DNA of 64,000 bases, from positions 14,198,001 to 14,262,000 of the forward strand of contig OZ024747.1 of the NCBI GenBank assembly GCA_964016885.1, given 5' to 3'. Origin of the DNA: Eledone cirrhosa (Eukaryota). The position numbers and the translations under genes were made by a program. Shown piece after piece: positions 15,918 through 54,291 of this stretch (the first letter of the stretch is position 1; the number at the start of each line of letters is the position of its first letter). The notes under the pieces were generated by a model. It saw only the letters and a list, made by a program, of their open reading frames with translations, was not told the DNA's origin and made no database searches.

Positions 15918-17028
15918 AAAGAGAGAGAGAGAGGGAGGGCAGTGAGAGAAAGAGAGAGAAAGTGGGAGAGAGAGCGAGAGAGAGAGTGGGAGAGAGAGTG
16001 GGAGAGAGAAAGAGAGATAGAGAGAGGGGGAAGAGAGAGAGAGTGGAAGAGAGAGAGAGTGTGGGAGAGTGAGAGAGAGAGGGGAAGAGAGAGAGCGAGA
16101 GAGAGAGAGTGTGTGCGAGAGAGAGTGAGAGAGGGGAAGCGAGAGAGAGCCAGAGAGAGAGAGGGGAAGAGAGAGAGTGGGAGAGAGAGCGAGAGAGAGA
16201 GTGTGTGTGAGCGAGAGAGTGAGAGAGAGAGGGAGAGAGAGAGAGAGAGGAGAGAATCTGTACTCCAAGTATTACATTATGTATATATATAAACACACAT
16301 ATGCACTCACACACACACACACACACAAATATATATACACATACATACACATATACACACACACGAATACATGAATATATATATATATATATACAATATA
16401 TATACATAAATATATAAATGCATACATGCAAACAAATTACTATGTATAATTACACAGACAGACACACACGCATATATATATGTGTGTGTGTGTGTGTGTG
16501 TGTCTGTGTGTGTGTGTGTGTGTGTGTGTAATATATATATACACACACACACATATATATATATATATATATACATATATACATATAAATATACATATAT
16601 ACATATATATATATACATATATATATATATATATATATATATATATATATATATATACACATATATATACATATATATATATATACATATATACATATAT
16701 ACATATATATATATATATATATATATACATATATATATATATACATATATATATACATATATATATATATATATACACATATATACATATATATATATAT
16801 ACATATATATATATATATATACATATATACATATATATATATACATATATACATATATATATACATATATACATATATATACATATATATATATATATAC
16901 ACACACACACATATATATATACATATATATATATATATAGTTAGGGAAGCAGGAAATTGCTTATATATATATATATATATATATATATATATATATATAT
17001 ATATATATATATATATATATATATATAT
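15918..17028. repeat. (GA)n then (TA)n/(TG)n low-complexity tracts
   Basis: Directly visible. Confidence 0.95.
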
Positions 17029-17224
17029 AGCAACGAGTAGGACCCCGACGGCTGAGCTCAAACCGTTTCGACGTCTAATTCTGGACAGTCCGGAATTAGC
17101 CGTCGAAACGGCTTGAGCTCAGCCGTCGGGGTCCTACTCGTTCCTATTACCCACTCTACTACCCTAAGTATTGAGTACTTTGGTGCGTTATGGTCCACCT
17201 GGTTTCTTACCACATTTCCTTCGT
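17027..17224 (+). mobile_element. Palindromic (TA)n-embedded element, copy A (half-hammerhead family)
   Basis: ~60-bp arms about position 17087 plus a ~77-bp unpaired tail; GAAA-CGGCT-tgagctc-AGCCG-TC at 17105-17127. Confidence 0.85.
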
Positions 17225-17450
17225 TATATATATATATATATTTATCAATGCTTATGTATATACATATATATATGTATATACATAAGTACATATGTGTATA
17301 TATGTGTGGATGTGTTGACGTATTGTTGCGTCACTCCTATTGTCTATGTGTATATATCAATAACAATAACTAGGACATTCACCTCTAACCTATTTTCATG
17401 CACAAACACATTAAATATATTTTGAAACGACGCAATGTTTTGAAACGTGT

Positions 17451-18047
17451 TTTAATGCTAGTATAGTATACAAACAAAAAAACGAAAAATCAGTGATGAA
17501 TCTGGACTCAGTTTATTGCTTGTTACAATTGTTTCGCCGGTAGGTAGCTCGAGACATGATCATTGTATGGATCTGGTTGATTCTACGGCTGTAGGTTGCC
17601 TCGGACACAGGCAATTCGTTCGGAGCAGATTTTCTCACTGGAGTGTTATCGTAAAAAAACACCTTCAAAAAACCTCTTCCACTCTTGTCATGCCATTGGC
17701 TGTTGTTATTCCTCGTCATCATAAGTTCTGGTCACTATTTACTGCTACACGGGTCATCAGCCATTTTCCGTCCGACACACTTCAATGGAGCCATGCTGGG
17801 TTTGGTATCTCACACGTCTGTTCACACTTCAGAGTATGTACCCACATACACACACACACATATATACACACACACGCGCAGGAATTGCCTGTGTCCGAAG
17901 GAACCTGCAGCCGTAGAATCAGCCAGATCCATACAGTGATCATGTCTTGAGCTACCTGCCGGCGAAACATTTGTAACACGCAATAAACTGAGTCCAGATG
18001 CATCACTGATTTTTCGTTTTTTGTTTTTATACTATACTAGCATTAAA
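17451..18047. mobile_element. Fold-back element with ~165-bp inverted arms (17451-17617 / 17882-18047) carrying a hammerhead-like motif
   Basis: Arms are diverged reverse complements. Right arm: GTGT-CCGAAGG...GGC-GAAA-CATTTG-TA-ACAC (17891-17979); the left arm has palindromic stem III CAATTG. Confidence 0.7.
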
Positions 18048-18298
18048 GCCCGGCGTTGCTCGGGGTCAGTAAGTTACCAAAGTTAGGTTGCACCACCCAT
18101 TTTATGGCAGCATTTTTTTGTCTGCAAGGCACTGGGTGAATGAATTGCAGACCTGGACTGCCGAAGCAGGAGCTGCGCCAGCAGTGACAATTGTAGTTTC
18201 GCCTATGGATATTATCTCTAATTTTTGCCTCCCAGAAATATATATAATAAAATAAATATTGAAGTTATTAAGTTATATCTTTCGTTTATTATTATTAG
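18037..18298 (-). mobile_element. Probable non-autonomous Helitron
   Basis: Minus strand ends CCCGAGCAACGCCGGG (hairpin)-ctttaatg-CTAG|T; the other end begins CTAATAATAATAAACG. Confidence 0.55.
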
Positions 18299-18480
18299 GC
18301 GATGGATTGGCAGTATCGGTAGAGGGTCGGACGCCATGCTTTCCAGCATAGTTACGCCCCTTGGCGGTCTGAGTTCAAATCTCGCCGAGGTTAACTTTGC
18401 CTTTCATCCTTACGGGGTAGATAAAATAAAGTACCAGTAATGTACTGGGTAATTGATGGCCAAAAGTAGAAACAATTATT
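18298..18480 (+). mobile_element. SINE
   Basis: Consensus match. Confidence 0.9.
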
Positions 18481-18527
18481 ATTACCACGACGACGACGAC
18501 TACTACTACTACTACTATATATTTATA

Positions 18528-18764
18528 TATAGAAAGAGTCAGGACCTCGACGGCTGAGCTCCGGCCGTTTCGACAGGTAGATCCGAACTAATGGTCCACC
18601 TGGTATCTTACCACACCCTCTTTGTATATATATAGGAAAAGAATCAGGACACCGAGGTGAGCACCGGCCGTCGGGGTCCTGGCTCTTTTCCTATTACCGA
18701 CTCTAATACCCTAAATATTGAGTACTCTGGTGCGTTAGGTCCACCTGGTATCTTACCACCAGTT
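18528..18764. mobile_element. Two rearranged copies of a sister subfamily of the palindromic half-hammerhead element
   Basis: Shares GTCGGGGTCC...TTCCTATTACC...GAGTACT...GGTCCACCTGGT...CTTACCAC; local palindrome at 18632-18694. Confidence 0.7.
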
Positions 18765-51552: not shown

Positions 51553-51724
51553 TCTGTCTCTCTCTCTCTCTATATATATATAAACGCTTATGTGGACCTT
51601 TCAATATTCGTTGGTTTCCTGATTGGATTTTCACCTCGAAACTGGATACCAACACGGAGTACACCTGAACTTCCACCAGGAAATTTTTCGTATCTTTGAA
51701 ATTTTCTTTGCTTCTTGCATTTAA

Positions 51725-52042
51725 ATATTCCATGACACTCTACCACTTTTCCTCTACTACAATCTTCTTACACCATCTTCTTCTCACCCGTCTATTTTTC
51801 ACTCCCACCCTAGTACCTTCAATATGCCCAATCTCAAATCTTTTCTCCGCCAGCTCCATTCTATTTTTATCTAAAGACATTTTTTCCAATTCCATCCCGT
51901 CTTAATTTCTTTCCATCTTATTTTTCTTTCTTTCTTCCGATGAAGGACTAGCGCCCGAAACGTTAAGTCCCGCTTCCTGCTATATCAAGCGTTAACCTTC
52001 CATATACTGTAACGATTGTGTTGTTATTTCTGTTTACCGTTT
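51725..52042 (+). mobile_element. Penelope-like 3' end/pLTR with variant hammerhead (CCGATGA core, 51934-51967), ending in (CA)n
   Basis: Homologous to 20787-21011. Confidence 0.7.
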
Positions 52043-52802
52043 ACACACACACACACACACACACACACACACACACACACACACACACACACACACACAC
52101 ACACACACACATATATATATTCATGCAAATTATGGTTTGTAAACTAGTAACTTGTAATTCATCCACTATGCGTTAATTTCTTAATAACGAACCCTCGTTG
52201 TACTATGTATATATATATATGTATGCATGTATATACATATGTATACATATATGTATATATATATATGTATGTATGTATGTATGTCGGGTCACTCTTGAGT
52301 GCTACTGGTAACATGTAACCCAGTACAAACTGTCGCAAGGTCGGGTCGTCGGCGACTAAATCGGCAACCCCACGAAGTTTACTTGATTTTGGACACCATG
52401 CAGGACAAAAATCAAAACCTGACAAAGGTCGGAAGAACTCATAAGGCCATCCAAAAGTGTGTAAATATGTATATACACATGTACATATGTATGTATATGT
52501 ATATATATACATGGGTGCATGTGTATGTATATGCGCATGGACATAGAAATAGTCGGGCTGGACACCCGATCGCGCGGTTAACCCACTGGGAGTGAAGGAC
52601 CCTAGCCTTTGTCAGGGCATTCTTCTAGGAGAAGGCAACTCAAGAAACTGGGATAACTTCGATATAAAACCTGCGGCTCAGTAGTTACCGATGATGTTGA
52701 TCTTTTCTTCTTTTCGAGTTATAGGTAGTCACTCAGAGAGTGGGATTGGTTCAGTGCACAGTCTTTCCTCACTTTAAAAAATAGAATCGATTAATAATTA
52801 TT

Positions 52803-52975
52803 AATAATTGTTTCTACTTTAGGCACAAGGCCAGCAATTACCCAGTATATTACTGGTACTTTATTTTATCGACCCCGTAAGGATGAAGGGCAAAGTTAAC
52901 CTCGGCGGCATTTGAACTCAGACTGTAAAGAGACGTAACTATGCTAGAAAGTATGGCGTCCAACCCTCTACCGAT
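52803..52975 (-). mobile_element. SINE
   Basis: Consensus match. Confidence 0.9.
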
Positions 52976-53715
52976 AATGGTATATCGTGCAATGGTCATA
53001 CTCGATAACGAGAGGGCAGCCATCATGTATGTATGCATATATTGATGTATGTAAGGATGTATTTATTTATACATGTATGTATGTATGTATGCATACACGC
53101 ATATATAGATATTGCAGATGTTTATAGCAACATTCGATAGGGTCATTATACCAATAACACCCTCTCCACGTTGGTGTTTCTTCTCATCATTTAGAATTGA
53201 TTATTTTCAAGTCTATTGTTTAACATTTCCAACCTTTTCTTCGCCTTTCTTCTTTACACAATGGCGGCGTTGAGTTTTATGTGTGTAAGTAGGTGTATAT
53301 ATCCCTGAGTATGTGTTACATATCGTGTTCATGTGTAGTGTACGTATTTGTGGTGCGGTGTGTGTATGTTGGTGTGCGCCTAAGTCTATATTACTGTATC
53401 AGGGTTCATATAATATATTGGTGTATTTGTTTTATTTTACTTTGTTCTTTTATATATATATATATATATATATATATATATATATATATATATATATATA
53501 TATACATACATATATATATATATATAAATATATACATATATATATAAATATATATATATATATATATATATATATATATATACATACATATATATATATA
53601 TATATATACATACATATATATATATATATATATATATATATATATATATATATATATATATATATATATATATATATATATATATATATATATATATATA
53701 TATATATATATATAA

Positions 53716-54085
53716 CGATGGTGGATGGGTGCTACACGAGAATGCTGAGGATGGCTCTGAACATTAATCAGTATACACTGAGGATGAAAAACTCAGAGCT
53801 GTATGGGAGCATCCCAAAAGTCAGCTCAAAAGTGACACAGAGGAGACTGAGGTTGGCTGGACATGCTCACCGACATCCAGAGTTGACATTGCACTCAGTG
53901 CTCCTTTGGAAGCCCCTACATGGACACACTAGAAGAGGAAGACCAATGTTAACGTATGTTGATGCCCTAAGGACAGACACTGGTCTGTTGGAGATGCAGA
54001 ACATGGCAGCGATAATGAGGGACAGAGACCGCTTGAGAGAACTCGTCCATGGATCTCGGGAATTTTACCCGCCTGAGATAGATAG
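53716..54085 (+). mobile_element. RTE-clade LINE 3' fragment within a TA tract
   Basis: [14 protein letters not shown]...[12 protein letters not shown]...LLWKP..G.TRRGRP..TYVD. Confidence 0.85.
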
Positions 54086-54091
54086 ATATAT

Positions 54092-54291
54092 AACGAAGTA
54101 AATGTGGTAAGGAACCAGATGGACCATAACGCACCAAAATACTCAATACTTAGGGTAGTAGAGTGGGTAATAAGTACAAGTAGGACGCCGACGGCAGAGC
54201 TCAAGCCGTTTCGACGGCTAATTCTGGACTAGTCCAGAATTAGCCGTAGAAACAGCTTGAGCTCAGCCGTCGGGGTCCTACTTGTTCCTAT
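54092..54291 (-). mobile_element. Palindromic (TA)n-embedded element, copy C
   Basis: ~60-bp arms about GGACT|AGTCC (54230/54231); same family as copies A and B. Confidence 0.85.

What the first reader, a model, noticed from the sequence alone, without database searches (positions are those of the whole stretch)
17027..54291. Recurring palindromic element with only the 3' half of a hammerhead, a fixed outer end and a variable fold-back point
Seen: copies at 17027-17224, 21054-21290 and 54092-54291 (relatives at 18528-18764 and 51424-51552) all lie in (TA)n. Each of the three has a long arm (CCGTC-GAAA-CGGCT tgagctc AGCCG-TC-GGGGTCC...~100-nt tail) and a shorter inverted arm. The short arm always stops at the same TTCCTAT|ATATA point, whereas the hairpin apex differs (GGAC|a|GTCC, GGACT|AGTCC, and ~18 nt further out at TTATCC|a|GGATAA). 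None retains CUGAnGA. Inference: these are independent insertions made by one mechanism, such as two converging cDNAs or snap-back synthesis, with TA microhomology fixing the ends. They give dsRNA-forming hairpins whose GUC site could only be cut in trans.
Basis: partly seen in the sequence, partly recalled or inferred. Interest (0 to 1): 0.8.

Follow-up and report, generated by a model that had tools for sequence, protein, structure and literature searches.

The report
Penelope retroelement head-to-head insertion stumps
These short hairpin-shaped repeats in TA runs are real and abundant, and are most likely ordinary, heavily shortened insertion scars of a Penelope-like jumping gene, whose two arms were probably copied separately and joined, usually stopping before the catalytic half of the gene's predicted self-cutting RNA.

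Summary
Three hairpins and three relatives sit in (TA)n with unrelated flanks. Each hairpin has a tail-bearing long arm and a tail-less inverted arm. In public reads the fixed short-arm end is the top listed loose end (3,837 of 25,392 and 3,595 of 26,228 reads), and many different strand-switch junctions occur. Contigs show the missing 5' hammerhead half about 60 nt upstream: TGAnAA plus an in-register helix II, probably the known U3-A8 core variant. [quoted passage not shown] Copy 18531-18625 has non-overlapping arms, which favours two cDNAs joined by microhomology over snap-back. Corrections: the apex is not freely variable (17087 and 54230 coincide; stops cluster at one point), and trans-cleavage is unsupported. 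The parent RT/endonuclease ORF was not found. A second family at 1168-1800 has the same layout with complete hammerhead motifs, and a third hairpin resembles it. Verdict: new member of a known kind; low interest.

The parts
17027..17086 (-). c17 short (tail-less) inverted arm
17088..17225 (+). c17 long arm: helix II 3' strand, GAAA, helix III with palindromic loop, GUC site, helix I 3' strand, ~78-nt tail
18531..18592 (-). c18a tail-less arm (diverged subfamily), maps to c21 21132-21194
18590..18625 (+). c18a tail-bearing arm, only the last ~38 nt, maps to c21 21049-21089; no overlap with its partner arm
18633..18662 (-). c18b short inverted arm, decayed (22 of 30 paired)
18664..18764 (+). c18b long arm, starting inside helix III
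21054..21210 (-). c21 long arm; predicted GUC cleavage point at 21152/21151; GAAA at 21171-21174; extends 19 nt further upstream than c17 and c54
21212..21290 (+). c21 short inverted arm ending TTCCTAT then (TA)n
51424..51526 (-). c51: tail plus helix I 3' strand of a third variant; no clear inverted arm (perhaps a ~20-nt decayed remnant at about 51548-51575)
54092..54230 (-). c54 long arm with tail
54231..54291 (+). c54 short inverted arm ending TTCCTAT then (TA)n

Best explanation
These hairpins and their relatives are dispersed repeats in (TA)n that are most likely extremely 5'-truncated insertions of an endonuclease-bearing Penelope-like retrotransposon, each probably built from two separately primed cDNAs joined head to head. 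Inferred steps: the element's GIY-YIG endonuclease nicks both strands of a TA run; reverse transcription starts on each nick at one of two fixed internal RNA sites, 20 and 98 nt downstream of the predicted hammerhead cleavage point, which fixes both outer ends and puts a ~78-nt tail on one arm only; both cDNAs usually stop after 30-140 nt, preferentially just past helix II's 3' strand; their ends join at 0-3 nt of microhomology. Because the parent's hammerhead has a long loop II, these stops fall before the catalytic 5' half, so the stumps keep only GAAA-helix III-GUC and are predicted to be catalytically dead. Shown here: the anatomy, the family-wide fixed short-arm end, many junctions, non-overlapping arms in one copy, and an upstream core plus helix II in contigs. 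Inferred: PLE parentage, dual priming and ribozyme activity of the parent.
For: Anatomy matches published PLE insertion units: adjacent inverted 5'-truncated copy and one-sided tail (PMC8557442, passages), palindromes at head-to-head junctions (PMC3846280, passages), hammerheads in pLTRs with palindromic helix III, opposite-strand pairs and a U3-A8 variant (PMC4209133, parts 1-2 of 4). The anole PLE protein cuts AT-rich DNA, extends both strands and starts at two internal sites downstream of the hammerhead that define the tail (PMC11167929, parts 1-2 of 4). Reads: the loose end at 21132 followed by (TA)n is the largest shown in both raw-read runs (3,837 of 25,392; 3,595 of 26,228). 13 of the 15 listed joints (of 28) switch strand, with 0-3 shared letters; 11 have one side at 21182-21192, and 7 of those have the other side short of 21132. 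c18a arms do not overlap. Loose ends behind 21204 in 10 contigs of X1 and 4 of X4 give TGAnAA-G followed by a helix II 5' strand pairing 7 of 8 and 8 of 8 in register; 63 and 21 of 200,000 shuffles reach this; position 7, the free core position, differs between the two consensuses while positions 8-9 are kept. An unrelated family at 1168-1800 has the same layout with a complete U3-A8 motif in both arms and a 35-nt tail.
Against: No RT/GIY-YIG ORF is linked to this family: no genome is held, and searches with the one long open frame found nothing real. Core position 3 and the helix I 5' strand lie beyond the 30 letters printed, so a complete hammerhead is not shown. A plain duplex-energy test of the same pairing was weak (120 and 207 of 2,000 shuffles), and the register test was designed after seeing the motif. 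The tail (~78 nt) is twice the published 30-40 nt. c17 and c54 share one apex, and the c17 and c21 short arms share one variant absent from all three long arms, which hints at copying of ready-made palindromes. The joint table does not state arm direction; the head-to-head reading is by analogy with c18a. Asymmetric junctions could also come from later deletion.
Confidence: 0.75

Rival explanations
1. A non-autonomous mini-element: a ready-made half-hammerhead unit (a ~140-nt RNA, or the whole palindrome) is transcribed and re-inserted as such by PLE enzymes in trans; apex differences arise afterwards.
For: Stops cluster at 21191-21194 in c17, c54 and c18a and in 5 of 11 read joints. Summed contig depth in X1 falls from 4.3 million at 21163-21169 to 23 thousand at 21205-21211 (not a copy number). 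c17 and c21 short arms share a variant and their tails differ at 1 of 79 sites.
Against: Two subfamilies about 80% alike stop at the homologous point, which suggests a mechanistic stop, not one master. Over 1,000 reads per run of the c18 type continue past it. Arms within a copy are no closer to each other than to arms of other copies. Junctions are many.
Confidence: 0.12
2. Same PLE origin, but the palindrome forms by self-priming or snap-back on one strand (the proposal in PMC3846280), and asymmetric or shorter forms are later deletions at the unstable hairpin.
For: Apices sit at short self-complementary words of the parent (TA; CC-A-GG). The c17 apex can be obtained from c21 by one central deletion. 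Palindromes are unstable (general knowledge).
Against: Snap-back cannot give c18a or the 7 listed non-overlapping joints without an extra deletion each, and does not explain a fixed stop at 21132. The anole enzyme extends both strands in vitro.
Confidence: 0.1
3. Assembly or amplification fold-back artefact.
For: The individual loci were not checked in long reads; only part of c21 was laid.
Against: Arms differ at 4, 6 and 8 of 60 sites within the three copies. TA-flanked short-arm ends and strand-switch joints occur in two raw-read runs and two contig sets from two studies.
Confidence: 0.02

Closest known systems
Insertion units of endonuclease-bearing Penelope-like elements (Penelope/Poseidon, Neptune; Craig et al. 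2021, PMC8557442; Arkhipova et al. 2013, PMC3846280)
   Same: Head-to-head inverted 5'-truncated copy, tail on one end only, hammerhead near the 3' end, microsatellite targets, palindrome at the junction.
   Different: Both arms are stumps of 30-160 nt with no ORF; the tail is ~78 nt, not 30-40; only the 3' half of the hammerhead is kept; parent ORF and clade not identified.
Anole Poseidon element PAc (Frangieh et al. 2024, PMC11167929)
   Same: Two internal RT start sites downstream of the hammerhead define the tail; both strands are cut and extended; AT-rich target.
   Different: Here the inferred starts are 20 and 98 nt past the cleavage point; no ORF was found starting at the hammerhead; the passages read do not describe joining two cDNAs into a palindrome.
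PLE hammerhead variants (Cervera and de la Pena 2014, PMC4209133)
   Same: Type I layout, G10.1-C11.1 pair, long helix II, palindromic loop 3, U3-A8 core variant (Schistosoma Cercyon).
   Different: Helix III here is stable (5-6 bp plus the closing A-U) and loop II is about 40 nt, unlike the minimal metazoan motifs; position 3 was not seen.
Naiad PLEs of cephalopods (PMC8557442 supplement; (TA)n targets; some flagged HHR_half_core)
   Same: (TA)n targeting; core halves far apart.
   Different: 0 hits for 5 window motifs in the supplement (line wraps could hide some); the 3' end of Naiad_Obim shown is unlike this family.
Non-LTR retrozymes (PMC7229834; bioRxiv 10.64898/2026.07.22.740005)
   Same: Small non-coding hammerhead-related repeats tied to PLE pLTRs.
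   Different: Retrozymes are head-to-tail tandems with complete ribozymes; these are head-to-head pairs with half a ribozyme.

Membership tests
Penelope-like element insertion | Parent ORF with telomerase-like RT and GIY-YIG endonuclease | tested here: inconclusive
   No genome; protein searches with the open tail frame negative; DNA pattern scans of prokaryote, viral and metagenome collections negative or chance.
Penelope-like element insertion | Inverted 5'-truncated copy joined head to head | tested here: met
   5 of 6 units in the window; strand-switch joints in reads.
Penelope-like element insertion | Tail extension on one arm only | tested here: met
   Fixed short-arm end at 21132 in the window and in reads; tail ~78 nt, longer than the published 30-40 nt.
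Penelope-like element insertion | Type I hammerhead in the terminal repeat | tested here: inconclusive
   3' half in the window; TGAnAA plus helix II 5' strand in contig loose ends; position 3 and helix I 5' strand not visible; no Rfam hammerhead hit in the window.
Penelope-like element insertion | AT-rich or microsatellite target bias | tested here: met
   10 of 11 ends at TA runs of 8 nt or more vs 8.6% background.
Penelope-like element insertion | Target-site duplication | not testable with these tools
   Cannot be told inside (TA)n without empty-site alleles.
Non-LTR retrozyme | Head-to-tail tandem units, each with a complete hammerhead | tested here: not met
   Units are head to head and lack the 5' core in all 6 window units.
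Naiad clade | Sequence match to published Naiad consensi; N-terminal endonuclease | tested here: inconclusive
   0 hits for 5 exact motifs in the supplement; Naiad_Obim 3' end unlike; 3' ends of the other cephalopod Naiads not read; ORF unavailable.
MITE | Uniform length with terminal inverted repeats at both ends | tested here: not met
   Arms are unequal (tail outside one arm), unit length varies about 95-237 nt, and arms need not overlap.

The most novel reading that the evidence does not exclude
A very abundant half-ribozyme family in which copying stops at one point inside the loop of a long-looped U3-A8 hammerhead, stripping the catalytic half from nearly every new copy, while non-overlapping arm pairs record two independently primed cDNAs. 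That would be genome-scale in vivo evidence that PLE head-to-head palindromes come from twin target priming rather than self-priming, and the stumps might spread as a protein-free SINE-like unit of their own.
Probability: 0.2. Interest if true: 0.5.

Novelty: new member of a known kind. Interest (0 to 1): 0.22.

Why it matters
It explains a class of short palindromic repeats that annotation pipelines could misfile as MITEs or unknowns. It also offers a natural dataset for an open point: how PLE inverted junctions form. The 2013 paper proposed self-priming, while the 2024 biochemistry shows both strands extended. Three searches listed no paper whose title or abstract start proposes joining of two cDNAs for PLE palindromes, but the library lacks most subscription papers and I read only some hits. 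The architecture itself is published, and four earlier scan reports reached the same reading in other genomes.

Tried and rejected
No whole genome is held, so genome-wide tabulation was impossible. Rfam at gathering threshold: only a U6 copy. Metagenome pattern scan: 6 loci, all 68-73% GC with matches of 16-30 nt only, rejected as chance. Prokaryote-genome and viral scans: 0 hits. The upstream motif is not in the window (3 matches vs 4.5 expected). Protein searches with the 46-codon open frame: none and one repeat-rich unrelated protein at E 5.6e-4. No RNA holder listed, so small RNAs and editing were not examined. Read ends piled at 21185, 21196 and 21240: two of these fall on AATT sites and are read as library restriction cuts (inference), so the depth drop in the RAD runs was not used as evidence. 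Duplex-energy test not significant. Folding the c21 long arm alone gave z = -0.59 and no hammerhead fold; the minimum-energy fold of the family at 1641 also did not give the hammerhead. The decayed PLE-like frames at 50549-51050 were considered as parent and rejected: opposite orientation to c51, their own hammerhead-like end at 51094, no DNA similarity. Segmental duplication rejected. Host identity was not tested; 'octopus-like' rests on a recalled SINE motif. Supplements of PMC11167929 and PMC4209133 were not read and may show junction or core variants.
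Full report
OBSERVATION. The three hairpins and their relatives are present as described. Arms pair at 52 of 55, 72 of 79 and 51 of 55 positions around centres 17087, 21211 and 54230.5. The 17 kb copy folds with z = -15.9. The long arm reads, in sense, helix II 3' strand, GAAA, a 5-6 bp helix III with a palindromic loop, GUC, helix I 3' strand, and then 98 nt to the end; the short arm stops 20 nt past the GUC. 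The tail unique to the long arm is therefore about 78 nt. No copy has the 5' core. 10 of 11 ends lie at TA runs of 8 nt or more against 8.6% background, and flanks are unrelated except for one other repeat. The 17 kb and 54 kb apices coincide within 1 nt; only the 21 kb apex lies 19 nt further out.

RELATIVES IN THE WINDOW. 18528-18764 is two units. In c18a the tail-less arm maps to c21 coordinates 21132-21194 and the tail-bearing arm to 21049-21089, so the arms share no sequence. One strand folding back on itself cannot make this, since each arm holds sequence the other never copied; it needs two priming events or a later deletion. c18b has a third junction, inside helix III. c51 is essentially tail only. 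The six arms of the three hairpins differ from their majority at 1-5 of 60 sites and are no closer within a copy than between copies. One variant is shared by the c17 and c21 short arms and by no long arm; this is unexplained and slightly favours copying of finished palindromes.

PUBLIC READS. 13 runs were listed, the best holding 0.40 of the sampled words; no RNA holder was listed. I laid 4 of the 13 on 21044-21245. The family is abundant: 25,392 of 12,467,656 and 26,228 of 12,785,554 raw reads, and 21,502 and 554 contigs. Of the loose ends shown (24; 641 not shown), the largest in both raw-read runs is at 21132 with (TA)n outside (3,837 and 3,595 reads), so the fixed short-arm end is family-wide. 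Of 15 joints shown (13 more not shown), 13 switch strand, with 0-3 shared letters. 11 have one side at 21182-21192, and 7 of those have the other side at 21093-21129, like c18a. The table gives no arm direction, and some joints rest on one read start. Read-end piles at AATT sites are taken as library cuts, so RAD depth says nothing about truncation. Contig depth in X1 also falls about 190-fold between 21163-21169 and 21205-21211, but it is not a copy number.

THE MISSING HALF. Loose ends behind 21204 in 10 contigs of X1 and 4 of X4 (agreement 0.96) continue the long arm for 30 letters. In sense they read TGA, one variable base, AA, G, then a strand that pairs with the helix II 3' strand in register, G opposite the C before GAAA: 7 of 8 and 8 of 8 pairs, reached by 63 and 21 of 200,000 shuffles; 0 of 77 core-like sites in the window reach 8 and 4 reach 7. 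A at position 8 implies the U3-A8 core variant reported for Schistosoma PLEs; position 3 and helix I lie beyond the printed letters. Loop II would be about 40 nt, which explains why short copies keep only the 3' half. The c21 apex falls at a CC-A-GG word and the c54 apex at TA in this parent sequence, i.e. at short self-complementary microhomologies.

MECHANISM. Craig et al. 2021 (PMC8557442; passages; supplement) describe the inverted 5'-truncated copy, one-sided tail and microsatellite bias. Arkhipova et al. 2013 (PMC3846280; passages) describe palindromes at head-to-head junctions and propose self-priming. Cervera and de la Pena 2014 (PMC4209133; parts 1-2 of 4) describe PLE hammerheads and opposite-strand pairs. 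Frangieh et al. 2024 (PMC11167929; parts 1-2 of 4) show an anole PLE protein cutting AT-rich DNA, extending both strands and starting at two internal sites that define the tail; hammerhead cleavage was not needed. Applying this, I infer two nicks in (TA)n, two cDNAs from the two start sites, early stops with a preferred point at 21191-21194, and joining by microhomology. Confidence 0.75. Rivals: a non-autonomous unit element (0.12), snap-back plus later deletion (0.10), artefact (0.02). Trans-cleavage is unlikely because the GUC would be buried in a long duplex, and there is no evidence of transcription.

INTERNAL CONTROL. The window holds an unrelated family with the same layout at 1168-1800: 256-nt arms with 2 differences, a 76-nt spacer, a 35-nt one-sided tail, (TA)n flanks and a complete U3-A8 type I motif in both arms. 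A third hairpin at 57430-57573 resembles it. The layout is thus generic, not special to this family.

WHAT IS MISSING. The parent ORF was not found, so PLE membership rests on architecture and the hammerhead. The clade is open; five exact motifs were absent from the Naiad, Chlamys and Hydra supplement. The host looks octopus-like from a recalled SINE motif; this was not tested. A 2026 Octopus vulgaris repeat paper lists 31 recently active PLE families and has no occurrence of 'hammerhead' or 'palindrom' in its main text (PMC13282606; passages). Retrozyme papers were seen as part 1 of 5 and passages; the curation guide PMC8969392 as passages.

VERDICT. Real, abundant, and best read as a new family showing a published PLE insertion signature. 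Earlier scan reports in other genomes agree but are not independent evidence. Novelty: new member of a known kind. Interest 0.22. The useful residue is the non-overlapping arm pairs as a test between twin priming and self-priming.

Noticed in passing
window 1168-1800: Young unrelated head-to-head palindrome (256-nt arms, 2 differences, 76-nt spacer, 35-nt one-sided tail, TA flanks) with a complete U3-A8 type I hammerhead motif in each arm (core at 1641 + and 1352 -); a better substrate for a cleavage test than the finding itself.
   Followed up: partly
window 57430-57605: Third palindromic family, about 72-nt arms, hammerhead-like GAAA and helix II, apex apparently inside the core, about 30-nt tail, TA flank.
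   Followed up: partly
window 20821-21005 and 51862-52036 (extending to about 51600): Another family with a minimal C3-G8-type hammerhead (20895, 51937), ending in (CA)n; 81% alike; PLE 3' end by recalled motifs.
   Followed up: partly
window 50549-51230: Decayed RT-like frames; two database proteins match (E 8.6e-10 and 2.7e-9, PF26215) and look PLE-like by recalled motifs; followed by a hammerhead-like motif at 51094.
   Followed up: partly
window 10158-13484 (-) and 5389-8546 (-): An uninterrupted 1108-codon LINE frame (RVT_1, E 1e-29) with a C-terminal restriction-like endonuclease motif recalled from R4/Dong elements, and a broken relative in three frames.
   Followed up: partly
window 39052-39158 (-): Diverged U6 snRNA copy, probably a pseudogene (78.5 bits).
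   Followed up: no
arms vs tails of c17, c21, c54: Paired arms carry more changes from their majority than tails do (18 of 360 vs 4 of 237 sites, Fisher p = 0.044); could be CpG decay or survival of mismatched palindromes.
   Followed up: partly
c21 coordinates 21191-21195 and the matching point in c18a: The preferred stop lies at a sense TTAG in both subfamilies; it looks like a splice acceptor or a TA cut site; unexplained.
   Followed up: no
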